Virus genome (UHGV): UHGV-0797466
DNA from: a virus
Strand: one strand, 5' to 3'
DNA: 9,708 nt
Positions 1-9,708 of the stretch are shown here, piece by piece. The position numbers and the translations under genes are program-made. The notes beneath the pieces are model-generated. The model saw nothing but the letters and a program-made list of their open reading frames with translations, had not been told where the DNA came from and did no database searches. Position 1 is the first letter of the stretch; each line of letters starts with the position of its first letter.

Positions 1-13
1 GCCAGGAGGACCC

Positions 14-38
14 GTAAAAAAGCCGGATTGCTCCGGCT
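14..38 (-). terminator. Rho-independent terminator downstream of the SSB gene
   Basis: Hairpin AGCCGGA (21-27) / TCCGGCT (32-38) with a 4-nt loop; the A-run at 16-21 is a U-run on the minus-strand transcript. It lies 16 nt past the SSB stop at 54-56. The same block (about 85% identical) recurs at 8751-8775. Confidence 0.6.
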
Positions 39-53
39 TCTGTCACTCGTCGC

Positions 54-476
54 TTAAAACGGTATGTTATCCCCGTACGGATCATCATTCCCCGCCTGTT
101 GTTTTGCCCTGTTCAGCGCGTCAGTAGCCTGGCCCTGTTGACCTTTTTTGCCGCCCAGTCGCGCCGTTCGCGCACTGATTACACTGTCTGCGATAACCTG
201 CCAGCCCTGCCGCGTTTCTCCGTTCTGCCCAGTCCACTGGCTGATCTGCATGTTACCCGCCACGCTCAGGAGTTCACCCTTGCGGTGCCTTTCCAGTGCT
301 TCGGCCTGTCTGCCAAATGCCAGGACGGATAACCACATCGTCGCCGTTCCGTCATCTGCCTGGCTGCACGGAAGGGGGACCGCCATACGCGCCAGCGTCA
401 TCGGTGTGCCCTTGCTGGTCTGTTTTACCTGCGGGTCGTCCACCAGCCGCCCGTAAGCGGCTATCTGTGCTGTCAT
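54..476 (-). CDS. ssb: Single-stranded DNA-binding protein (SSB, OB-fold) of phage/plasmid type
   Basis: 140-aa ORF. The core resembles E. coli SSB as remembered (TMWLSVLAFGRQAEALERHRKGELLSVAGNMQISQWTGQNGETRQ vs [42 protein letters not shown]). It has a Gly/Gln-rich linker and an acidic tail ending DNIPF (E. coli SSB ends DDDIPF). ATG at 474-476 overlaps the upstream stop (ATGA); SD-like GGAGAGGTGG lies upstream. Confidence 0.85.
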   Translation of the reverse strand: MTAQIAAYGRLVDDPQVKQTSKGTPMTLARMAVPLPCSQADDGTATMWLSVLAFGRQAEALERHRKGELLSVAGNMQISQWTGQNGETRQGWQVIADSVISARTARLGGKKGQQGQATDALNRAKQQAGNDDPYGDNIPF

Positions 477-751
477 GATTCCACCTCTCCGGTTTTAACG
501 TTGATGGTTGTTACCTGTTCCGCTTCGGCAATCTCCCGTTCTGTCAGCGTGGCAAAGTTTGCCGCCGTCGTGGTCATGAATGCGCTTATCAGTTCGGGAT
601 GTGCTTTCGCGTATCCTTCCCCCGCGTGGCGGTCTATCGTTCTGATTGCCACCTTTAAAGCGTGCTCTGTCATGTCTAACGCGCGATATTTCGGTTCTGT
701 TCTGTCTCTGCGTTTTTTGAGTGATTTATTAAATTTCCCTGAAGTGTGCAT
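473..751 (-). CDS. Hypothetical small basic protein (92 aa) between the origin and ssb
   Basis: ATG at 749-751 preceded by SD-like GAGGGGG (762-768, about 10-nt spacer). Stop overlaps the ssb start. Lysine/arginine-rich N-terminus. No family recognised. Confidence 0.5.
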   Translation of the reverse strand: MHTSGKFNKSLKKRRDRTEPKYRALDMTEHALKVAIRTIDRHAGEGYAKAHPELISAFMTTTAANFATLTEREIAEAEQVTTINVKTGEVES

Positions 752-801
752 ATTTATTTTTACCCCCTCGTTTAAAAAGTTTTGAGTTGTGCCTCCCCTT
801 G

Positions 802-1026
802 TCTACCTTATCTACCTTAGTGGCCCTCATGCCAGTAATGGCGCGGCTTTCAGCGGGGTAGAGTGCTTTTATCCACTATCTACCCCGTGTCTACCTCCCT
901 GTCTGACTCAGGTAAAATCAGGTAGAGAGGGTAGATAGTGGGTAGACAGTAAAAAAAAGCTATCTACCTAACTTAATGCACTGAATTAAATGTATTTTTC
1001 TTTACTCAGGTAGACAGGGTAGACAG
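802..1026. repeat. Iteron field, putative replication origin
   Basis: At least 11 copies of the hexamer core TCTACC / GGTAGA in about 225 bp: TCTACC at 802, 811, 879, 890, 963; GGTAGA at 857, 921, 930, 941, 1009, 1018. Extended form GGTAGACAG appears three times. An A8 tract (951-958) and an AT-rich stretch (971-1003) are embedded. It sits directly downstream of the primase/helicase gene, as P4 ori/crr iterons sit near alpha. Confidence 0.7.
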
Positions 1027-1039
1027 CAATTACAAAAAA

Positions 1040-2794
1040 TTATAAAAACGCGTCGCACTCGTCTGTTGTTATTGCGTTAGTCTGCGTTACTCCCTTAACT
1101 TTCCGCGTAATATATTCATGTCCGTAAACTTTCGCGGCTGGCTTCATAGCCTTGCCAAAGTCATTTACGTTTAGCGGTTTGCTCCTGCCTGCGTACGCCA
1201 TAAACGCCAGATAGACGCGGTAAAGGCTGTTTCTGGTCGTGTACTTCACTGAATCGCCACCGCCGCCCATCATCAGGCCGCGTGCTTCCTCCAGAAAATT
1301 CAGGAACTGGCAAAACTCAATAACCGGATCCGTCTGTTGCTTTATTGCCAGTGCTTCATCACCGTCACGCTGTTCCAGTAGTAAAGCCCGTGCTTTCTCA
1401 GAGTCGGTAAAGTTCGCCAGCAATCGGCGGATAATGACAGGGATTTCAGCCGCAATCTTTTCCGGTAGCTCCCTGTCTTTTTCGGCCTCACTGACGATAT
1501 TGTCGAAACGGAAAATCACGCGACGACGTGCCACACCTCCGGCCCGTTCGGTGAATATCATCGGGTTGTTGTTGGTCGCCAGCACCACCGCCCTGATTAC
1601 CGCCGTAAAACGCTTTTCATATTTCGGGTTAATTTCCACGGGGTCACCGCCCGTGATTTTCTTGATGCCCGTTCCTTCGCCTGTATATTTCGGCTGGTCA
1701 GCCAGGACGATAAGACGACTCCCGACAACCTGCGCACGTCCACCAGCATCATCAAGCGATGTCATTTCAGCGCTTACCGTGTTCTGTTTCCCTGCCAGAA
1801 GGCTGGCTATGTGCGTGAATGTACTTTTACCGCTCCCGCCGTCTCCGGTGGCCTCAATAAACATCTGCCAGTCGTACCGGTTCGCCATAATCATGTACAG
1901 CGCGGCACATATACGCATCATCTTGCGCGGGTCTTTTCCGGCTGCGTGCTTAAGCCATTTATGAAAGTTTGGCGCGTTATCGCGGATGTTCTCCCCTGGT
2001 GCTGGTGGCGTGTACTCAATGCCGTTGTTCGTGGTGATCCAGTTCTCCGGCGTGTGCGGGGAAAATTCCCCCGTTTTCAGGTCAAGCGCACCATTGGCGA
2101 ACGGCAGCAAATCGCCGGACGGCTCGCCCATTGGTTCGGCAATAACTTTTAACGCTTCCACGGCGTTATTGATTACGCGCTTGCTGAAAGTGGCCCTGTG
2201 CTCTGAATAGATCGCCACCATTTCGCGGCTAAGTTCCATTGTGCTGACCGGACACCATACCCCGCCGCGCCATACGTGAACGATTTCACTTTCAGGATGT
2301 ACGCAAACGCCATCAAAGCGATCGGCAAGCAGCTGCGCGCGCTCACTGTCCGCCATCTGCGAAAGTTGCGCCTTTTGCTTTACCGGAAGCTCAATGACCA
2401 GACCATCAGAAAGATTCTGGCGCTCACGGGCCAGATATTCGCGCCAGTTCTCCACCTTCTGACCGTGCATACCATCAGGGTAAAAATTTGCATCCTGAAT
2501 ATCTGCCGCCGCCAGCTTCTGACCAATCTTTTTGGTCTCCACTAAATCCAGTTCTCCGGCCTGGTACAGCCTTACGCGCTTTTTCCCATCCGGAACAATT
2601 TTCAGCGCATCAAGTTCGGCAAGCTGATTTGGCCCAAGCCACACAGGCGGCACATTATCGCCGGATGCGGGGCCGTCCTGCTCCTGCCACTGTTTTGCAT
2701 GTGACCACGCATCACTACCCGCGAAAATAATTACCTCTGTGTCTTTGTGTTTTATTCCGCGTGGTTGTTTTTTTACGTTCGGTGCCAGTTTCAT
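1040..2794 (-). CDS. P4 alpha-like primase/helicase (phage/plasmid primase with P-loop NTPase domain)
   Basis: 584-aa ORF with Walker A motif GDGGSGKST. General resemblance to P4-family primase C-terminal / D5-type NTPase proteins. ATG at 2792-2794 overlaps the upstream stop (ATGA); SD-like CAGGGGT lies 5 nt upstream. An iteron field lies immediately downstream. Confidence 0.85.
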   Translation of the reverse strand: MKLAPNVKKQPRGIKHKDTEVIIFAGSDAWSHAKQWQEQDGPASGDNVPPVWLGPNQLAELDALKIVPDGKKRVRLYQAGELDLVETKKIGQKLAAADIQDANFYPDGMHGQKVENWREYLARERQNLSDGLVIELPVKQKAQLSQMADSERAQLLADRFDGVCVHPESEIVHVWRGGVWCPVSTMELSREMVAIYSEHRATFSKRVINNAVEALKVIAEPMGEPSGDLLPFANGALDLKTGEFSPHTPENWITTNNGIEYTPPAPGENIRDNAPNFHKWLKHAAGKDPRKMMRICAALYMIMANRYDWQMFIEATGDGGSGKSTFTHIASLLAGKQNTVSAEMTSLDDAGGRAQVVGSRLIVLADQPKYTGEGTGIKKITGGDPVEINPKYEKRFTAVIRAVVLATNNNPMIFTERAGGVARRRVIFRFDNIVSEAEKDRELPEKIAAEIPVIIRRLLANFTDSEKARALLLEQRDGDEALAIKQQTDPVIEFCQFLNFLEEARGLMMGGGGDSVKYTTRNSLYRVYLAFMAYAGRSKPLNVNDFGKAMKPAAKVYGHEYITRKVKGVTQTNAITTDECDAFL

Positions 2795-3090
2795 TTCTTA
2801 CCCCTGAATACGTTAAGCATCTTTTTTATTTCCTGAATATTGGCGCGTGCTTTCTCCCTGCTGGTGGGCACGTTACGCGGTACGGCCTGCACCAGAGAAA
2901 AATCACGATCGAACTGATAAACAGGCATCACGCAATCATATTCGTAGCCTTCACGACGGTAGGTTACGCGCCGTTCCTCCACGCCCTTAATCATTACCGT
3001 GCCGCCGTACTGGTCGCGGTAAATATCACCGCGCATGAATTTAGTGCGAGTTTTGCCACTGGCAGTTAAGCCAGAATATTTAAGTTTCAT
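2791..3090 (-). CDS. Hypothetical protein (99 aa), translationally coupled to the primase gene
   Basis: ATG at 3088-3090 with GGAGAA 8 nt upstream. Stop overlaps the primase start. No family recognised. Confidence 0.6.
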   Translation of the reverse strand: MKLKYSGLTASGKTRTKFMRGDIYRDQYGGTVMIKGVEERRVTYRREGYEYDCVMPVYQFDRDFSLVQAVPRNVPTSREKARANIQEIKKMLNVFRGKK

Positions 3091-3095
3091 TATTT

Positions 3096-3326
3096 TTATT
3101 CTCCGGTGTGGAGCGCTTTATTATTCTCGTGAATTGCCATAGCCTTATTGAGTTCATCAATAACAGGTGTCAATAATGTCTGAACAGCGGCAAACATTAA
3201 TGATGAATGATCTTCGCCACCTTCCGGCACTTCAATTAATTTAATTAACAACGCATTCATTTCGCGTGCTTTAATTAATGCGTTTTCAGAGTGGATTAAT
3301 ACTTCAAAAGGGATTTTATGCATCAC
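3096..3326 (-). CDS. Hypothetical small protein (76 aa) in the AT-rich island
   Basis: Starts ATGATG at 3321-3326 with AGGGAGA 7 nt upstream. Overlaps the upstream gene by 11 nt. Sequence is visibly AT-rich. Confidence 0.5.
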   Translation of the reverse strand: MMHKIPFEVLIHSENALIKAREMNALLIKLIEVPEGGEDHSSLMFAAVQTLLTPVIDELNKAMAIHENNKALHTGE

Positions 3327-3546
3327 AAATTTTCTCCCTTATTCTTTTAATGTCCTCATTAAGGATGTCTGTAACTTTTATCAGCGAGTTTTTGGCAATT
3401 ATTTTTATTGTTTTAAGTTTTCTTTTGTCGTGCTCCGACTGTGATTTTCTCTCCATAATCTCCACCATGTGGGTAACATCAACGAGCGCACGTATCAGTA
3501 TTTGCATTGCTTCTTCTGCTGCGTCCGGTGTGGTTTTATTGCACAT
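3316..3546 (-). CDS. Hypothetical small protein (76 aa) in the AT-rich island
   Basis: ATG at 3544-3546 with strong SD GGAGGGG 3-5 nt upstream. Overlaps the 3' end of the 89-aa ORF in another frame. Charged, probably helical. Confidence 0.5.
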   Translation of the reverse strand: MCNKTTPDAAEEAMQILIRALVDVTHMVEIMERKSQSEHDKRKLKTIKIIAKNSLIKVTDILNEDIKRIREKICDA

Positions 3547-3764
3547 GTACCCCTCCGCATTTTTTCGTTAGAAATAAGCGTTCTTCTTTCCTGTTCATCG
3601 CTCAGGAATACGCAGACCTCACCGCTAAGGCGTTTAAGTAAGCCGATGATTGCCCCTGATTCGCTGTCGGTCATCATGCCAGGGTAATCCTCTGCCAGTG
3701 CGCAAATAACTTCGATTTGGTGGGCGCGTTCTGCTGCCTGTTGTAGTGTGATTTCCTGACTCAT
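3495..3764 (-). CDS. Hypothetical protein (89 aa)
   Basis: ATG at 3762-3764 overlaps the stop of the upstream Icd-like gene (ATGA). The C-terminal about 17 aa overlap the next ORF, so the true 3' end is uncertain. Confidence 0.45.
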   Translation of the reverse strand: MSQEITLQQAAERAHQIEVICALAEDYPGMMTDSESGAIIGLLKRLSGEVCVFLSDEQERRTLISNEKMRRGTCAIKPHRTQQKKQCKY

Positions 3765-4222
3765 AAGCCTACCCCCTGACGAATACGGGCGACAAAAATC
3801 AGATGTGCGTGCGGCAGCTGTGCACGTGCTTCGCGCTCAGTGGCAGCGGTAACGGTGAATATTGCAATGCTGTCTGTCAGGCACTGCATAAAGCGCCAGA
3901 CAAAATAAGGGCGTGCGGATACAGCCATGTGAAAGGCTCCCAGATGAATTTTAAGGAGTCTCGCTACTACGCTGTCAAACATGGTGGCGAGACGTAACAG
4001 GGTTGACAGACTGGTCATCTGGAAACCAGCGAGCACAAAGGCTCCCCCGTTACGCCCCGCCATAATGCGGGTATGGGTAGGTTTACGGACACAAAAAAAC
4101 CGCTTATCGGATGTGGGCGGCTGTCCGCCAGATGTATTCAGGCTGTCAAACCCGGTCGCCATGTGGGCGACGGGGGAAGCATACAGCCCCGTGATAATTT
4201 TTTGCAAGCGGTTTTTACGCAT
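3761..4222 (-). CDS. Ash/Icd-like protein (153 aa) with C-terminal Icd-like motif
   Basis: C-terminus TEREARAQLPHAHLIFVARIRQG matches the remembered Icd-like motif (SE.EAR ... LSFAAR). ATG at 4220-4222 overlaps the upstream stop (cATGcgTAA); SD-like AGGGG lies 7 nt upstream. An internal start at 3928 (GGGAG SD) is an alternative. Confidence 0.6.
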   Translation of the reverse strand: MRKNRLQKIITGLYASPVAHMATGFDSLNTSGGQPPTSDKRFFCVRKPTHTRIMAGRNGGAFVLAGFQMTSLSTLLRLATMFDSVVARLLKIHLGAFHMAVSARPYFVWRFMQCLTDSIAIFTVTAATEREARAQLPHAHLIFVARIRQGVGL

Positions 4223-4418
4223 GATATGACCCCTGGCGAATACGGGCAGCGAATACCATCACGCAGCCAGCCGGAGATTGCTGACGCGCTTCCTGTTCGC
4301 TGGTGGCCTCGATGGTAATCACGCGCGGTTGTGCCGTGCTCAGGGCGATAAAACGCCAGATGTATTTATTCAGGTTGTACGAGTCCCGCCCTTGCGGGTG
4401 TCTGGTATAATTTCTCAT
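4215..4418 (-). CDS. Host cell division inhibitor Icd-like small protein (67 aa)
   Basis: This is the C-terminal 67 codons of the 382-aa ORF in the track; the rest is judged spurious. ATG at 4416-4418 with GAGG 5 nt upstream. C-terminus SEQEARQQSPAGCVMVFAARIRQG is paralogous to the next gene and fits the Icd-like motif. Confidence 0.6.
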   Translation of the reverse strand: MRNYTRHPQGRDSYNLNKYIWRFIALSTAQPRVITIEATSEQEARQQSPAGCVMVFAARIRQGSYHA

Positions 4419-4439
4419 AGCTACCTCGATACTTTCGCT

Positions 4440-4614
4440 ATCGTTGGTGGTTAGAAGCCCTGCATGTGTTCCAGCACTGCGGGGCTTTGCTGTACATACA
4501 CCACAATCATTAGTGTGTGTACAGATTAAATTTAAGTGCGCTACAGTGTCAAGTGTTTTATTTACACACCTTTTGGTGTAATGTATGCACACCTCAAAAT
4601 AACCGGACATTCTG
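4440..4614. promoter_or_regulatory. Divergent promoter/operator region between the leftward operon and the RHH gene
   Basis: Lies between divergent starts at 4418 (-) and 4615 (+). Imperfect 9-bp-stem hairpin AAGCCCTGC (4453-4461) / GCGGGGCTT (4478-4486). Palindromic motif TTACAC...GTGTAA / ACACC-TTTT-GGTGT at 4561-4580 and related TACATACACC at 4492-4501. Decamer AACCGGACAT at 4600-4609. Confidence 0.5.
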
Positions 4615-4920
4615 ATGGCAACAGGAAATATCAACAGCAGATCGCAAATGAAAAATATCCGCTTCCCCCATGATGTAATCGAGGAAATGGAAAATTCGAA
4701 AACGGAAGGGGAAACAATAGCCGCTTTCGTGATTACAGCCGTTCGCGGTGAGATCGCCCGCCGCCAGGCAGAAGGAAGCGGAGAAAATCCCCTGGTTTCT
4801 TCGCTCGATGCACTGGCGCAGGTGGAAAAAATCGGAGTCAAAGCAGCCGAGGAGATCGGGCAACTCATCACCGTCGCGCGTGAAGAACTCCAGCGTCGCA
4901 AGGCCAAAGAGCAGGAGTGA
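4615..4920 (+). CDS. Arc/Mnt-like ribbon-helix-helix DNA-binding protein, candidate satellite repressor
   Basis: Segment KNIRFPHDVIEEMEN aligns with the P22 Arc N-terminus as remembered (FNLRWPREVLDLVRK), followed by a helical, charged C-terminal extension. It is the only convincing plus-strand gene, divergent from the main operon, and followed by a strong terminator. Start could be M1 (4615) or M12 (4648); neither has a strong SD. Confidence 0.65.
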   Translation: MATGNINSRSQMKNIRFPHDVIEEMENSKTEGETIAAFVITAVRGEIARRQAEGSGENPLVSSLDALAQVEKIGVKAAEEIGQLITVAREELQRRKAKEQE

Positions 4921-4962
4921 CCATCACCAGCGCCGTGGTGTAAGGTATTACGGCGCATTGCT

Positions 4963-5151
4963 ATGCAGGACAACACAATGACCGATAAAGAATTGACCAA
5001 AACATTATCACCGGCACGGAAAAGACGGCGCAGAAAGATAGAGCATGAATCAGAAAGATTCGCGCCATGTGCTTTTGCCCTTGAGCAATTCCTTAAAGAG
5101 TACAGGGAAAAGCGCTCATTGCAGGTATGGCAACGAACTGAACCAGACTGA
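4963..5151 (+). CDS. Possible small basic protein (62 aa) downstream of the RHH gene
   Basis: ORF in the same frame as the RHH gene, separated from it by a single TGA (4918-4920). No convincing SD. It fills most of the gap before the terminator. Weak call. Confidence 0.3.
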   Translation: MQDNTMTDKELTKTLSPARKRRRRKIEHESERFAPCAFALEQFLKEYREKRSLQVWQRTEPD

Positions 5152-5246
5152 TTGCATTGCCCACCAGCCTGATAACGGCTATCATCCCCGTGCTTATGTT
5201 TGGGATCACACACACAAACGGCGCAGCGGGTTATCTGTTCAGAAAG

Positions 5247-5274
5247 GCGGCTCCATTTCGGGGCCGCTTTTTTT
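5247..5274 (+). terminator. Rho-independent terminator ending the rightward (RHH) transcription unit
   Basis: 8-bp stem GCGGCTCC (5247-5254) / GGGGCCGC (5260-5267) with one G-U pair, loop ATTTC, followed by T7 (5268-5274). Confidence 0.75.
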
Positions 5275-5396
5275 ATACCTGAAAAACCCCAATTTTGTTG
5301 TTTTTCAGTTTCACCAGGGCGAACGAATCCCCGCCCACGTTCTGGCGTATATTCAATCTTCATGGTTATAGCTCTGTGTTCAGATGATTGATGTGT

Positions 5397-5413
5397 GGCG
5401 GCTGCGTGCCGCC
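5397..5413 (-). other. GC-rich hairpin just 3' of alpA
   Basis: Perfect 6-bp stem GGCGGC / GCCGCC with loop TGCGT, 8 nt past the alpA stop. No U-run follows on the minus strand, so it is not a canonical terminator. Confidence 0.3.
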
Positions 5414-5420
5414 AGCGTGA

Positions 5421-5609
5421 TTAATGAACTGCCTTGCAGCTATCCTTCCAGGCCAGAACCTCGGATAAAGACCAGCCAACGGAACGACCGCCAAGTTTAC
5501 GACGTGATGGGAATTGTCCGGCCTTTTCCAGGCGGTAGCGACACGTACGGCTAAGGCCGGTTAGTTTTTCGCATTCTTTTTCACGTATAAACCGATCAGT
5601 GCTTAACAC
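5421..5609 (-). CDS. alpA: AlpA-family HTH regulator (excisionase-like)
   Basis: C-terminal part LTGLSRTCRYRLEKAGQFPSRRKLGGRSVGWSLSEVLAWK resembles the AlpA family (ITGLS...YRL...G.FP....LG.R.VGW...E...W). The track ORF (5421-5690) starts at TTG. I prefer the GTG at 5607-5609, which has a strong SD (GGGGGG, 5-nt spacer) and gives 62 aa, the usual AlpA size. Confidence 0.75.
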   Translation of the reverse strand: MLSTDRFIREKECEKLTGLSRTCRYRLEKAGQFPSRRKLGGRSVGWSLSEVLAWKDSCKAVH

Positions 5610-5760
5610 TATTGCCCCCCTTTCGTTTCTTAAAGAGTCATCAGGTGTCTTATTGTGTCGTATTGTTCCCGCTAGAGTGATGAATGGCAAATACTGAGGA
5701 TATATGATTTACAGAAAATGAAACAGTAAGAATAAAATCTTTTAAATTCATGTTAATACA

Positions 5761-5791
5761 AAGGCATAAAATATTGTTCCATGCCTTTTTT
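5761..5791. terminator. Hairpin with flanking T-run in the int-alpA intergenic region
   Basis: Stem AAGGCAT (5761-5767) / ATGCCTT (5781-5787), 13-nt loop, T6 at 5786-5791 on the plus strand. The minus-strand side is moderately U-rich. Could terminate int read-through; modest confidence. Confidence 0.35.
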
Positions 5792-5880
5792 CTCGCTCTT
5801 TAAAGAGTGATTCGCTAGTGTACAAAAAACCAGTAACACATTAAAAATCAGCTACTTATAAATCCGTACGCTTTTTCGCC

Positions 5881-5930
5881 TCTTGTTCGTAGTTGTTCCA
5901 CATTGTTGCTCATTGTTGCACGTTGTATCT
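5881..5930. repeat. Five 10-bp-phased TTGTT repeats just 3' of int
   Basis: Decamers tcTTGTTcgt, agTTGTTcca, caTTGTTgct, caTTGTTgca, cgTTGTatct begin at 5881, 5891, 5901, 5911, 5921, in exact 10-bp register. Confidence 0.5.
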
Positions 5931-5974
5931 GTTCGCATATCCAGTATGCGCATACTGAAAAAACACGAAAAAAA

Positions 5975-7204
5975 TTATTTTCTTCTGGCTACGGGTAGCG
6001 TGGTTACGTTTTCATGTGTTCCCGCCAGTATCCCTAACCGCTCCGTCCACATATCCAGCGCATTGCGTTTCGCATCCAGATAACGGGAATGATTATAAAC
6101 TCGCTGCATTCCTGGCATCTGGTGGCCTGTAAGCTGCTCCACGACATGCGGATCAACGCCTAAATCGTTCAGCATGGTTGTAAAGGTGCGCCGGATGTCA
6201 TGCAGTGACCAGTGAGGGTGATTAAGCCTCCTGTGCGCTAATCTTCCATACTGCGATACGCTGGCCTCCTGTTTCACTTCCCCCAGCAATAAGCCCGTGT
6301 GCCTGTTCTGCTCCACCAGCTGCGTGACGAACGGCAGGATCGCTTCCGGTATGGGCCGGAATATTGCGACCTTCGTTTTGCTGTGCTCCTTCGGAACGGT
6401 CCATAGCATTTCCGTAAAATCCCACTCCCCGATCTCCGATAACCTCAGTTCTACCGTTCTGGCTCCGAAGACAATCAGGAGGCGGATTAACGCGACGTAG
6501 TAAGGGGAGAATATTTTTTTGTCCAGTGCCTGCAATAATTCGCCAAGTTCTTTGTTACTTAAGACACGTTCGCTTATATCCGGTTTTTTCCCAACGTCCG
6601 CCACGTTCAGATCGTCCAGAACGTTGCTGATTGCATAGCGCCGCCTACGGCAGAACTTAAGCGCCTGTTTGCACGCCTGTAGCACGAATCCGGCAGTAAC
6701 AGGCGTTCGCTTTGCCACCTGGTCAAAACAGGCCAGCCAGTGCCGTAGCTCGCATTTATCCAGCGGCATAGCACCAATCTGCTGTATTACGTGATTATTA
6801 AGTCGCCTTTTCAGGGCGATATAATCCACGCGGTTTTCCTTTACGTAATACTCAAGCCAGTAGGTGAGCGCATCGCCAACCGTTACGGGCTTTAACGCTT
6901 CCTGTACGGTGTAATTCATCTCATGACGTGGATTTTTCCCCTCAGCCAGCCATGTGCGACACTGTGCGGCTTTTTCCCTGGCTGCTTTCAGGCTCAGATC
7001 AGGATAACTTCCCAGCTTAATGCGTTCGGGTCGTGTCTCCCTTCCCGTTCCGGCCCTGTATGTGAAATACCAGGTCAATTTCCCTGATGTTAAATATTTC
7101 ACGCTCAGGTTTCCGCCATCACTATAAAACGTGTTTTTCTCCGCTGGCTTACCATGAAGTTTCCTTAGCAAGGTATCGCTCAGTTTGTTCATTGCTCTGC
7201 TCAC
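5975..7204 (-). CDS. int: Tyrosine recombinase, P4-like integrase
   Basis: 409-aa ORF. N-terminal arm-binding-like region (SDGGNLSVKYLTSGKLTWYFTYR ... KLGSYPDLSLKAAREKAAQ) resembles P4-family integrases. C-terminal catalytic region contains HDIRRT and a Tyr near the end (RVYNHSRYL). GTG at 7202-7204 with SD GAGGGGG 6 nt upstream; an in-frame ATG at 7192 is an alternative. Confidence 0.9.
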   Translation of the reverse strand: MSRAMNKLSDTLLRKLHGKPAEKNTFYSDGGNLSVKYLTSGKLTWYFTYRAGTGRETRPERIKLGSYPDLSLKAAREKAAQCRTWLAEGKNPRHEMNYTVQEALKPVTVGDALTYWLEYYVKENRVDYIALKRRLNNHVIQQIGAMPLDKCELRHWLACFDQVAKRTPVTAGFVLQACKQALKFCRRRRYAISNVLDDLNVADVGKKPDISERVLSNKELGELLQALDKKIFSPYYVALIRLLIVFGARTVELRLSEIGEWDFTEMLWTVPKEHSKTKVAIFRPIPEAILPFVTQLVEQNRHTGLLLGEVKQEASVSQYGRLAHRRLNHPHWSLHDIRRTFTTMLNDLGVDPHVVEQLTGHQMPGMQRVYNHSRYLDAKRNALDMWTERLGILAGTHENVTTLPVARRK

Positions 7205-7228
7205 GTTTTACCCCCTCTTTACGAAAAA

Positions 7229-7620
7229 GTGACTACACCAGTGACTACACCGTTCGGTGCACTGTATAGAAACAACGTGGAACAAATAGACACAAGAAAT
7301 ATACAGGCGGGTCATCTTTCCAGGGGGAAGCGCGCTAATTCATGAGGGGCGTTAATGTTGATATGGGGATCCCCATAACGGGGCTACCGGATTTTTTTCC
7401 GGTTTAACTGTTAATCAGGCTGGTGGGCTTTACCTGTTTTGTAGGAGTGGTCATTATGACCATTCAGACAATGACCTTAATCAGAACTTTTCGCTAAAAA
7501 ATGACGTTGGTCACGTCGTCCGGAAAGCACAAAATCCCGTCAATTTTTAATTAACGGTTAAACCGTCTTTTGTCACGGCGTGTCACTGGTTGTCACTCTC
7601 CGTCACGGTATGTCGCTACT
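7229..7620. other. attP-like region: arm-type repeats on both sides of a palindrome-rich central segment
   Basis: Tandem 12-bp repeat GTGACTACACC(A/G) at 7229-7240 and 7241-7252, 25 bp upstream of int. Five 10-bp-phased repeats at 7571-7620 (TGTCACggcg, TGTCACtggt, TGTCACtctc, cGTCACggta, TGTCgCtact). GTCAC is the reverse complement of GTGAC, and GTCACT resembles the lambda Int arm-site core (AGTCACTAT) as remembered. Between them: perfect palindromes TATGGGGATCCCCATA (7362-7377) and GGTCATTATGACC (7449-7461), and a hairpin at 7386-7403. Confidence 0.5.
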
Positions 7621-7904: not shown

Positions 7905-7938
7905 TGTGCCCCCATCGCTCTGATAGTCTGGTGTCGTC

Positions 7939-8116
7939 GGGTCCTTCCTGGAATTATGGCCCGTTACGGGGCGGCGACCTCGCGCGTTTTCACTATTTAT
8001 GAAAATTTTTCGGGATCCATGTCCGGTTTCTCTGCAAGTTAACCATATGAAAAATATAAAAACATGCTTTCCATGAACCGGACATGCGCAAAAAACAGAC
8101 ACTAAAACCGGACATC
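7939..8116 (+). other. Lambda-type cos site (cosQ-like flank, cosN, cosB-like repeats), plus-strand orientation
   Basis: 7969-7980 is GGGCGGCGACCT, the lambda 12-nt cohesive end as remembered. The flanks resemble the lambda left end (CGCGcGTTTTCaCTATTTATGAAAATTTTtCGG) and right end (GGGTCCTTcC..GG..CGTTACG). cosB-like repeats follow: ATGTCCGGTT (8019-8028, inverted), AACCGGACAT (8076-8085), AACCGGACAT (8106-8115), with an AT-rich spacer that could be an IHF site. Confidence 0.75.
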
Positions 8117-8183: not shown

Positions 8184-8618
8184 TTACTGTTCTGTATCGG
8201 CTGATTGCTCCATGCTGGCACGGCGAACGCTTATGGCATGACGCCACCCAGCCAGAAAGCCAGCCATTTTATTTCGTGCCTTGCTCACATCTTCCGGTGA
8301 ATAGCCGTAAATCTGCAAACCTTCATCAAATCGATGTTCTGTTTCTTCACTGGAGTACTCGTCACGCTCAGATGAAAGCAGCCTGGCAAACATAATTTTT
8401 TCCAGCGCACTGGTTTCTACGTGATATCTGATGGTCTCAAGACGGCTTTTACCTGAAGACCAAAGCAATGTATGCCCGATGTGATAACCGCCAGACTTTC
8501 CGCGATCCGCATTAAGATACGGCATCCCCTGTTTGGTCCATGCGCGAATAGTGGTTCTGTTAACCTTGAAATGTTCAGCTATTTCCTGCTGACTTACAAA
8601 ACAAGCTTTATCAATCAT
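8184..8618 (-). CDS. Nu1-like terminase small subunit homolog (winged-HTH); candidate Rpp-type packaging redirector
   Basis: N-terminus VSQQEIAEHFKVNRTTIRAWTKQGMPY aligns with lambda gpNu1 (VNKKQLADIFGASIRTIQNWQEQGMPV) as remembered. 144 aa. ATG at 8616-8618 with AAGGT SD. No terminase large subunit follows, which fits a satellite TerS-like protein rather than a phage terminase operon. Confidence 0.8.
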   Translation of the reverse strand: MIDKACFVSQQEIAEHFKVNRTTIRAWTKQGMPYLNADRGKSGGYHIGHTLLWSSGKSRLETIRYHVETSALEKIMFARLLSSERDEYSSEETEHRFDEGLQIYGYSPEDVSKARNKMAGFLAGWRHAISVRRASMEQSADTEQ

Positions 8619-8685
8619 AATGTTACCTTAACTGCATGGTTAAATATTAATCAAGTGGTGGTGGTGTCACCTTCACGGAAAAACG

Positions 8686-8750
8686 TCATAAATAGCGAAA
8701 ACCCGCGAGGTCGCCGCCCCGTAACGGGTCCATAATTCCAGGAAGGACCC
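8686..8750 (-). other. Second lambda-type cosQ-cosN module, inverted relative to 7939-8003, upstream of the Nu1-like gene
   Basis: The reverse complement of 8686-8750 reads GGGTCCTTCCTGGAATTATGGACCCGTTACGGGGCGGCGACCTCGCGGGTTTTCGCTATTTATGA. cosN is at 8708-8719 on the minus strand. The 22 nt after cosN match lambda exactly as remembered. No AACCGGACAT repeats lie between this cosN and the gene start. Confidence 0.7.
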
Positions 8751-8775
8751 GTAAAAAAGCCGGATTTCTCCGGCC
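8751..8775 (-). terminator. Rho-independent terminator downstream of the 137-aa gene, abutting the cosQ-like flank
   Basis: Hairpin GCCGGA (8759-8764) / TCCGGC (8769-8774) with loop TTTC; the A-run at 8753-8758 is a U-run on the minus-strand RNA. It lies 7 nt past the stop at 8781-8783 and is paralogous to the terminator at 14-38. Confidence 0.6.
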
Positions 8776-9553: not shown

Positions 9554-9708
9554 TTAACCAATTTTGACGGTAACAAATTTGCGAATATCTGCCGGAACCG
9601 GCTGCGGTGCGCTGTGCGTCTGCACGTACTCAATCGCCGGATCGCCGTCCTCAATCCAGTTTTTCGGGTAAAAAATGGTCCGAGCAGGATAAAGACATGC
9701 ACGACCCA
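9554..9708 (-). CDS. 3' end of an upstream ORF running off the window (possibly scaffold/protease-like by synteny with lambda Nu3/C before D)
   Basis: Open minus-strand frame ending at TAA (9554-9556). Hand-translated C-terminus: ...WIEDGDPAIEYVQTHSAPQPVPADIRKFVTVKIG. Function is inferred from position only. Confidence 0.35.
   Translation of the reverse strand, partial: GRACLYPARTIFYPKNWIEDGDPAIEYVQTHSAPQPVPADIRKFVTVKIG

What the first reader, a model, noticed from the sequence alone, without database searches (positions are those of the whole stretch)
802..1026. Dense iteron field with core GGTAGA in both orientations next to the primase/helicase
Eleven or more copies of TCTACC / GGTAGA with extended GGTAGACAG, plus an A-tract and an AT-rich patch, sit immediately 3' of the alpha-like gene. 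The motif differs from the P4 type I iteron I remember (TGTTCACC), which would imply a distinct origin specificity for this primase/helicase.
Basis: partly seen in the sequence, partly recalled or inferred. Interest (0 to 1): 0.4.

Follow-up and report, generated by a model that had tools for sequence, protein, structure and literature searches.

The report
Known replication origin of a phage satellite
The repeat cluster is real and is the replication origin of an E. coli phage-inducible chromosomal island, 97% identical to the EcCICFT073 origin that was described and tested in 2018, so it is correct but not new.

Summary
Eleven exact GGTAGA/TCTACC cores lie in 802-1023, against one elsewhere in 9.7 kb. 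They sit in the 288-nt gap just 3' of a 584-aa helicase/initiator gene, next to an A8 tract and a 40-nt AT-rich patch.

The window is the excised, circular-junction form of an EcCICFT073-type Gram-negative PICI. It carries int, an AlpA-like gene, pri-rep, SSB, capsid and decoration genes, rppA and two lambda-like cos sites. The gap is 97% identical to the EcCICFT073 pri-rep/ssb gap, with all 11 cores kept. Fillol-Salom et al. [quoted passage not shown] Deleting it, or pri-rep, impaired plasmid maintenance. Their deleted segment maps to window ~729-1035.

The initiator's C-terminal domain is homologous to the P4 alpha origin-binding domain. Across about 90 related loci the same architecture sits 3' of the gene, and the iteron changes with the C-terminal domain: TRTCTACC, TGTTCAC(C), TGTTCAT, GGTATACA.

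Direct protein-iteron binding is still inferred. Novelty: already known. Interest is low.

The parts
752..1039 (-). Whole ori region: the intergenic gap between pri-rep and the 92-aa gene. It equals the segment deleted in the published EcCICFT073 pri-delta-ori construct (window ~729-1035).
1009..1025 (-). Iteron pair 1: two TGTCTACC copies in the gene direction, 9 nt apart (GGTAGACA on + at 1009-1016 and 1018-1025). This is the set proximal to the pri-rep stop codon.
   Evidence: invariant in 8 diverged E. coli versions
969..1008 (.). AT-rich patch (about 78% A+T). Candidate DNA-unwinding site, flanked by iterons that point towards each other.
   Evidence: the same layout occurs in relatives with other iterons
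961..968 (+). Single inverted iteron TATCTACC on the far side of the AT-rich patch.
951..958 (+). A8 tract (T8 on the gene strand).
921..948 (-). Iteron triplet in the gene direction: GGTAGAGA 921-928, GGTAGATA 930-937, GGTAGACA 941-948, spaced 9 and 11 nt.
901..916 (.). Two degenerate iteron-like copies (GTCTGAC, GGTAAA) at the centre of the large imperfect palindrome 846-895 / 930-979.
877..895 (+). Inverted iteron pair: TATCTACC 877-884 and TGTCTACC 888-895, 11 nt apart.
857..864 (-). Single iteron in the gene direction (GGTAGAGT on +).
823..850 (-). Conserved non-iteron block (GCTGAAAGCCGCGCCATTACTGGCATGA on the gene strand). It is kept in all TCTACC-type relatives and also in L075, a relative with TGTTCAC iterons. 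Function unknown.
800..816 (+). Distal inverted iteron pair: TGTCTACC 800-807 and TATCTACC 809-816, 9 nt apart. Mirror image of pair 1 (inverted repeat 800-821 / 1004-1025, 86% complementary).
752..790 (-). Conserved AAAACTTTTTAAAC motif (770-783), followed by the GAGGGGG ribosome-binding site of the downstream 92-aa gene.
1040..2794 (-). pri-rep: 584-aa initiator. It has D5_N, an SF3 helicase (DUF5906) and a C-terminal Pox_D5 / P4-alpha-type origin-binding winged-helix domain (residues ~488-579). It is 94% identical to EcCICFT073 Pri-Rep.
54..751 (-). Downstream genes of the replication module: a 92-aa protein (473-751, phrog_1231, unknown function) and SSB (54-476).

Best explanation
The field is the replication origin of an EcCICFT073-type Gram-negative phage-inducible chromosomal island (PICI).

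Proposed mechanism: after helper-phage induction the island excises and expresses Pri-Rep. The C-terminal winged-helix domain of Pri-Rep binds the 8-bp iterons (TRTCTACC). These are phased about one helical turn apart and arranged in opposed sets. Oligomerisation on the opposed sets distorts and opens the intervening 40-nt AT-rich patch, so that the SF3 helicase ring loads itself and replication starts.

Shown in the literature for a 97%-identical sequence: both the segment and pri-rep are needed for plasmid maintenance.

Shown here: identity with that ori, homology of the C-terminal domain to the P4 alpha origin-binding domain, conservation of the cores, and co-variation of the iteron with the C-terminal domain.

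Inferred: direct binding, melting at the AT-rich patch, self-loading of the helicase, and the source of primers.
For: Statistics: 11 of the window's 12 GGTAGA copies lie in 222 nt, and 0 of 200 shuffles reach 12.

Identity of the element: it is an about 11.5-kb island in E. coli tqsA. It has int, an AlpA-like HTH, an Icd-like gene, pri-rep, SSB, capsid and decoration genes, and a 144-aa RppA flanked by two lambda-like cos sites, the gene set of EcCICFT073.

Similarity to the validated origin: the intergenic region is 97% identical to EcCICFT073's, with all 11 cores kept, and Pri-Rep is 94% identical.

[quoted passage not shown] Deleting ori or pri in pK03Blue clones reduced colony formation at the restrictive temperature.

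Primer mapping: the deleted ori is L003 12001-~12307, which corresponds to window ~729-1035.

Initiator homology: the C-terminal domain matches 1KA8, the P4 alpha origin-binding domain, at E = 7e-7, and alpha 324-762 is 40% identical. The helicase core matches SaPI5 PriRep, 7OLA, at E = 9e-15.

Footprinting by comparison: in 8 versions down to 76% identity, 48 of 66 core columns are invariant against 65 of 222 other columns (Fisher p = 4e-10).

Co-variation: across 82 scored loci grouped by C-terminal domain, each group has 8-11 copies of its own iteron in the 330 nt 3' of the gene and about 0 of the others'.

Single field: there is only one iteron field per island.
Against: No experiment was done on this exact sequence. 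Pri-Rep binding to these iterons has not been shown for any Gram-negative PICI in the literature I could search.

In the published test, ori deletion reduced but did not abolish colonies. The constructs supplied pri-rep in cis.

The AT-rich patch is only the fifth least stable 40-mer in the window.

The initiation point has never been mapped.

The co-variation rests on a handful of independent lineages, not on 82 independent events.
Confidence: 0.9

Rival explanations
1. The field is a P4 crr-like cis-acting enhancer of replication rather than the initiation site, and the true origin lies elsewhere in the island.
For: It occupies the same position as P4 crr, directly 3' of the alpha-type gene. 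It also has a similar unit layout: two direct iterons 9 nt apart, a T-rich stretch, then inverted iterons.
Against: Both this island and EcCICFT073 have a single iteron field. The only other TCTACC copy is a lone one inside int. P4 has two fields 4.5 kb apart. The published pri-ori clone contained only pri-rep plus this region and was maintained.
Confidence: 0.05
2. The repeats are operator sites that control transcription of the downstream 92-aa/SSB/capsid genes. This could be their only role, or a role in addition to origin function, for example Pri-Rep binding that blocks or gates read-through.
For: The field lies between co-oriented genes with no terminator-like site. The distal iteron pair sits about 45 nt upstream of the next start codon. 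The non-iteron blocks at 823-850 and 770-783 are conserved and unexplained.
Against: No sigma-70-like promoter was found on the gene strand. The iteron sequence tracks the initiator's C-terminal domain. Deleting the segment impairs Pri-Rep-dependent plasmid maintenance. A purely regulatory role would not explain the AT-rich patch being kept between opposed iterons across groups.
Confidence: 0.04
3. The repeats are a packaging (cos/pac) site or an integrase/excisionase arm site.
For: Small-terminase and integrase arm sites are also short phased repeats.
Against: The lambda-like cos sites are at 7937-8115 and 8676-8755, flanking rppA. The att overlap and its GTGACTACACC repeats are at 7222-7262, next to int. 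None of these contains TCTACC.
Confidence: 0.01

Closest known systems
EcCICFT073 ori (Gram-negative PICI replication origin; Fillol-Salom et al. 2018, ISME J, PMC6092414)
   Same: Same position, the same 288-nt length, 97% identity and all 11 iteron cores. Pri-Rep is 94% identical and the island has the same gene order.
   Different: There are 9 substitutions in the 288 nt, none in a 6-bp core. The island sits in tqsA rather than between roxA and phoQ. Its integrase is 92% identical, and it lacks the PerC gene.
Satellite phage P4 crr / ori and alpha protein
   Same: The initiator has a homologous helicase and a homologous C-terminal origin-binding domain (40% identity; 1KA8 at E = 7e-7). An iteron field lies directly 3' of the gene. 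The iterons are 8 bp, share the TGT..ACC frame, occur as pairs 9 nt apart in both orientations, and have an adjacent A/T tract.
   Different: The iteron is TRTCTACC, not TGTTCACC. There is one field instead of ori plus crr 4.5 kb apart. There is no 120-bp duplication. The protein lacks alpha's N-terminal Zn-finger/TOPRIM primase region (about 190 residues shorter). The rest of the element is a PICI, not P4.
SaPI origins and Rep / PriRep self-loading helicases (Staphylococcus aureus)
   Same: The ori lies immediately 3' of rep. It has 6-12 short iterons in two opposed sets around a central AT-rich region. The initiator is an SF3 helicase with a C-terminal winged-helix domain (PMC9371898). The helicase core matches 7OLA at E = 9e-15.
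   Different: The iteron sequences are unrelated. The host lineage and the transcriptional layout differ: here the genes are unidirectional.
Iteron plasmids (pSC101, F, P1, R6K type)
   Same: Repeated initiator-binding sites next to an AT-rich region.
   Different: Those iterons are 17-22 bp. They are bound by RepA-family dimer/monomer initiators that recruit host DnaA and DnaB. Here the repeats are 6-8 bp, the initiator is itself a helicase, and the single DnaA-box-like site (869-877) is at chance level and not conserved.

Membership tests
Gram-negative PICI ori (EcCICFT073 type) | Lies immediately 3' of the pri-rep (initiator) gene | tested here: met
   The first iteron ends 14 nt after the stop codon at 1040-1042. 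The field fills the 752-1039 gap.
Gram-negative PICI ori (EcCICFT073 type) | [quoted passage not shown] | tested here: met
   Pair 1009-1025, then AT-rich 969-1008, then the inverted copy 961-968 and the triplet 921-948. Further opposed pairs lie at 877-895 and 800-816.
Gram-negative PICI ori (EcCICFT073 type) | Sequence homology to the experimentally tested ori | tested here: met
   97% identity over 311 aligned columns, with all cores conserved. The published delta-ori deletion maps to window ~729-1035.
Gram-negative PICI ori (EcCICFT073 type) | The host element is a PICI: int, alpA and pri-rep transcribed in one direction, small size, helper cos site, and its own att site | tested here: met
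   an about 11.5-kb island in tqsA with int, an AlpA-like HTH, pri-rep, SSB, capsid and decoration genes, RppA and two lambda-like cos sites.
Gram-negative PICI ori (EcCICFT073 type) | Supports Pri-Rep-dependent replication | not testable with these tools
   Shown only for EcCICFT073 in PMC6092414 Fig. 2b.
Gram-negative PICI ori (EcCICFT073 type) | Iterons are bound by the initiator's C-terminal domain | not testable with these tools
   Indirect support only: homology to 1KA8 and iteron/C-terminal-domain co-variation. No EMSA or footprint was found in the literature.
P4 ori/crr system | Alpha-type initiator with a homologous origin-binding domain | tested here: met
   40% identity to alpha 324-762, and 1KA8 at E = 7e-7.
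P4 ori/crr system | Type I iteron TGTTCACC | tested here: not met
   No exact copy in the window. One-mismatch copies are at chance level and none lies in the field. The motif here is TRTCTACC.
P4 ori/crr system | Bipartite ori plus crr several kb apart, with crr built of two 120-bp direct repeats | tested here: not met
   One field per island. The longest direct repeat in the field is 21 nt.
P4 ori/crr system | N-terminal primase domain on the initiator | tested here: inconclusive
   [not shown]
Iteron-plasmid origin (RepA/DnaA type) | 17-22-bp iterons plus conserved DnaA boxes | tested here: not met
   The repeats have a 6-8-bp core. The single 8/9 DnaA-box match at 869-877 is at chance level and is lost in diverged relatives.

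The most novel reading that the evidence does not exclude
The origin may hold more than iterons. Two non-iteron blocks, 823-850 and the AAAACTTTTTAAAC motif at 770-783, are conserved. Block 823-850 is also kept in L075, the one TGTTCAC-iteron relative where I found it, and similar A/T motifs follow the last iteron pair in relatives with other iterons. Pri-Rep lacks a recognisable primase domain. These blocks could therefore be a host-factor or priming/loading signal that no study has described.

Separately, the data hint at a readable recognition code. NVNDFG versus NVA(E/D)FS at the start of the predicted recognition helix tracks TR- versus CN- at iteron positions 1-2. K(T)RGV versus K(A/N)RGM tracks GGTGTTCAT versus GGTATACAY. 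Such a code would define compatibility groups among PICIs that share a cell.
Probability: 0.2. Interest if true: 0.4.

Novelty: already known. Interest (0 to 1): 0.12.

Why it matters
It matters little as a discovery. The PICI ori downstream of pri-rep has been a defining, published feature of these satellites since 2018, and this copy is nearly identical to the tested one.

The practical value is in annotation. The 288-nt gap can be labelled rep_origin in several hundred E. coli genomes: 509 of 5426 complete genomes carry it.

The comparative table of iteron versus C-terminal domain gives a ready-made set of specificity variants. These could be used by anyone who wants to study origin recognition by P4-alpha/PICI-type self-loading helicases, or to design compatible PICI-based delivery vectors.

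Tried and rejected
- Rfam scan of 600-1200: only sub-threshold miRNA-hairpin matches (21-26 bits against gathering scores of 59-150), caused by the large imperfect palindrome. No RNA family.
- Promoter/terminator scan of 450-1250: one promoter-like site on the non-coding strand, at the level expected from shuffles, and no terminator. This gives no support for a strong promoter in the field.
- DnaA box: one 8/9 match at 869-877, at chance level and not conserved in diverged relatives.
- P4 iteron TGTTCACC: absent.
- Genome-contig scan with the single protein: only 3 loci. Two of them, from Serratia and Morganella, were informative.
- The search for homologous proteins: the listed hits were all at least 95% identical, so no useful alignment could be built for structure prediction.
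- A hairpin at the conserved block 823-850: one relative (L070) has a perfect 13-bp hairpin there, but by eye I found no comparable pairing in the window sequence, so I dropped a conserved-hairpin reading.

Full report
**Observation.** The hexamer GGTAGA/TCTACC occurs 12 times in the 9708-nt window. Eleven of these lie between 802 and 1023. Dinucleotide-preserving shuffles give a mean of 2.4 and a maximum of 9 per window, and 0 of 200 reach 12. With flanks, the unit on the gene strand is yTRTCTACCy. Neighbouring copies are 9 or 11 nt apart.

Read in the direction of the genes (the minus strand), the order is:
- two direct copies (1025-1009);
- a 40-nt AT-rich patch (1008-969);
- one inverted copy (968-961);
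- a T8 tract;
- three direct copies (948-921);
- two degenerate copies;
- two inverted copies (895-877);
- one direct copy (864-857);
- a 40-nt G+C-rich spacer;
- two inverted copies (816-800).

The outer pairs form an 86%-complementary inverted repeat. The AT-rich patch is the fifth least stable 40-mer of the window. The field fills the 288-nt gap between the stop codon of a 584-aa ORF (1040-2794, minus strand) and the next gene (473-751, minus strand).

**What the element is.** All genes run on the minus strand:
- an integrase (5975-7204);
- an AlpA/excisionase-like HTH;
- a DUF4222 protein;
- the 584-aa protein, with D5_N, DUF5906 (SF3 helicase) and Pox_D5 domains;
- a 92-aa protein;
- SSB.

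The 700-1100 region is found in 509 of 5426 complete E. coli genomes, always on the chromosome. In the identical copy (strain 300033, L001) it belongs to an about 11.5-kb island inserted in tqsA. That island also carries a major capsid gene and a head-decoration gene.

The window itself is the circular-junction form of that island. Window 1-7262 matches L001 13302-20565, and 7222-9677 matches L001 9348-11801, with a 41-nt att overlap. Two lambda-like cos sites flank a 144-aa TerS-like gene. These features match EcCICFT073, the model Gram-negative PICI. EcCICFT073 encodes a capsid homologue (c1499), a decoration protein (c1500), the 144-residue RppA (c1503) and two cos sites.

**Identity with a characterised origin.** I fetched EcCICFT073 from the CFT073 chromosome (L003). 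Its Pri-Rep is also 584 aa and is 94% identical. Its pri-rep/next-gene gap is also 288 nt and is 97% identical, with every one of the 11 cores conserved.

Fillol-Salom et al. 2018 (PMC6092414) state that the region immediately 3' of the initiator gene is the ori in PICIs. [quoted passage not shown] They also report that pK03Blue clones carrying pri-ori formed colonies at the restrictive temperature, while the delta-pri clone did not and the delta-ori clone gave significantly fewer.

I mapped their primers from the supplement. The pri-ori insert runs from L003 10198 to about 12307. The pri-delta-ori insert stops at L003 12000, 10 nt before the first iteron. The reverse primer for the pri-ori insert did not match L003 exactly. 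I placed its end by eye, on the assumption that the printed primer lacks one G. The 'ori' they removed is therefore the equivalent of window ~729-1035, which encloses the finding. [quoted passage not shown]

**Relation to P4.** The type I iteron is TGTTCACC. The crr, with ten copies, lies directly 3' of alpha, and six more copies lie in ori, 4.5 kb away.

The 584-aa protein aligns to alpha residues 324-762 at 40% identity. Its residues 488-579 match the solved alpha origin-binding domain, 1KA8, at E = 7e-7. Its helicase core matches SaPI5 PriRep, 7OLA.

The motif here shares the TGT..ACC frame with P4 but differs in the central dinucleotide. No TGTTCACC occurs in the field. Unlike P4, this island and EcCICFT073 each have only one iteron field. 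So the field works like P4 crr/ori and like SaPI origins, but it is a member of the PICI ori class, not of the P4 system.

**New comparative support for the inferred binding step.** In eight E. coli versions whose gaps are down to about 76% identical, 9-11 cores persist while the spacers drift. Forty-eight of 66 core columns are invariant, against 65 of 222 other columns (Fisher p = 4e-10).

I then examined 80 IMG/VR loci and three loci from the species-genome collection (Shigella, Serratia and Morganella), which encode relatives 50-100% identical. One locus was too short to use, and 82 were scored in the group table. An iteron field of the same architecture always follows the gene, but the repeat changes with the C-terminal domain:
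- TCTACC in 59 loci, including 3 whose proteins are only about 69-71% identical;
- ACTGTTCAC(C) in two other C-terminal groups;
- TGTTCAT in Morganella;
- GGTGTTCAT or GGTATACAY in a sixth group.

Each group has 8-11 copies of its own motif in the 330 nt 3' of the gene and about none of the others'.

There is also a finer correlation within the TCTACC group. Variants with NVNDFG have TR-TCTACC, and variants with NVA(E/D)FS have CN-TCTACC, with one exception. These lineages are few, so this is suggestive rather than statistical proof. It is nonetheless what is expected if the C-terminal domain reads the iterons.

**Mechanism and its status.**
- Shown in the literature, on a near-identical sequence: the segment and pri-rep are both needed for plasmid maintenance.
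- Shown here: identity with that sequence, domain homology, core conservation and co-variation.
- Inferred from P4 alpha and SaPI Rep biochemistry (for SaPI): the C-terminal winged helix binds the iterons without ATP; opposed sets bracket the AT-rich patch, which melts; and the SF3 helicase loads itself.
- Unknown: the start site, any role of the conserved non-iteron blocks (823-850 and 770-783), and the primer source.

On the primer source, residues 1-140 of 'Pri-Rep' match neither alpha's primase region nor any Pfam family. A moderate-confidence model gave only non-specific beta-alpha fold matches.

**Rivals.**
- A crr-like enhancer with the true origin elsewhere is unlikely, because there is no second field and the published minimal clone held only pri-rep plus this region.
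- A purely regulatory operator array does not explain the replication phenotype or the conserved AT-rich core. A secondary regulatory role is not excluded.
- Packaging and recombination sites are accounted for elsewhere in the window.

**Verdict.** The feature is already known: it is a near-identical copy of the EcCICFT073 PICI origin. Interest is low. The residual novelty lies in the unexplained conserved blocks, the iteron/C-terminal-domain specificity table and the doubtful primase domain.

Noticed in passing
window 7222-7262, and the whole-window layout: The window is the excised, circular-junction form of the island. Window 1-7262 equals L001 13302-20565 and 7222-9677 equals L001 9348-11801, joined through a 41-nt att identity block. 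That block contains two GTGACTACACC repeats (7229-7251) next to the int start codon.
   Followed up: partly
window 9666-9708: The last 43 nt are an inverted copy of a capsid-gene segment that lies about 400 nt further on in the chromosomal copy (L001 12167-12209). This looks like a contig-end assembly artefact.
   Followed up: no
window 7937-8115 (+), 8676-8755 (inverted), 8184-8618 (-): Two lambda-like cos sites in inverted orientation flank a 144-aa TerS-like gene. These correspond to cos1/cos2 and RppA of EcCICFT073 (PMC6092414, PMC6739421), so they are known biology.
   Followed up: partly
window 7572-7616: There are five GTCAC units (the last is GTCGC) at an exact 10-nt period, between the att region and the 93-aa gene. 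None is expected by chance (0 in 200 shuffles). The array is absent from the equivalent EcCICFT073 region. Its function is unknown; it may be a binding array for a recombination-directionality or regulatory protein.
   Followed up: partly
[not shown]
   Followed up: partly
window 823-850 and 770-783: Non-iteron blocks inside the ori are conserved across diverged relatives: GCTGAAAGCCGCGCCATTACTGGCATGA and AAAACTTTTTAAAC on the gene strand. The first is also present in L075, a relative whose iterons are TGTTCAC. Their function is unknown.
   Followed up: partly
L081-L095 (IMG/VR loci), 3' of the initiator gene: Two sub-groups have nearly identical C-terminal domains (KERKTRGVVTN versus KERRARGMVTN / KERKNRGMVTN) but different iterons (GGTGTTCAT versus GGTATACAY). 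This is a natural specificity switch worth testing.
   Followed up: partly
L070 and L075, 3' of the initiator gene: In these relatives the two halves of the ori are in the opposite order. The half with inverted pairs and the conserved block comes first, and the half with the direct pair, AT-rich patch and triplet comes second. This suggests a two-module origin.
   Followed up: no
window 4215-5363 (-): An intact 382-aa ORF has no Pfam hit. In the 99.9%-identical chromosomal copy, the same stretch is annotated as separate Icd-like fragments plus an opposite-strand YlcI/YnfO gene.
   Followed up: no
E. coli genomes: Some genomes carry up to 4 copies of this ori type (for example strain S19-651). 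Several co-resident PICIs may therefore share one iteron specificity and could cross-activate or compete.
   Followed up: no
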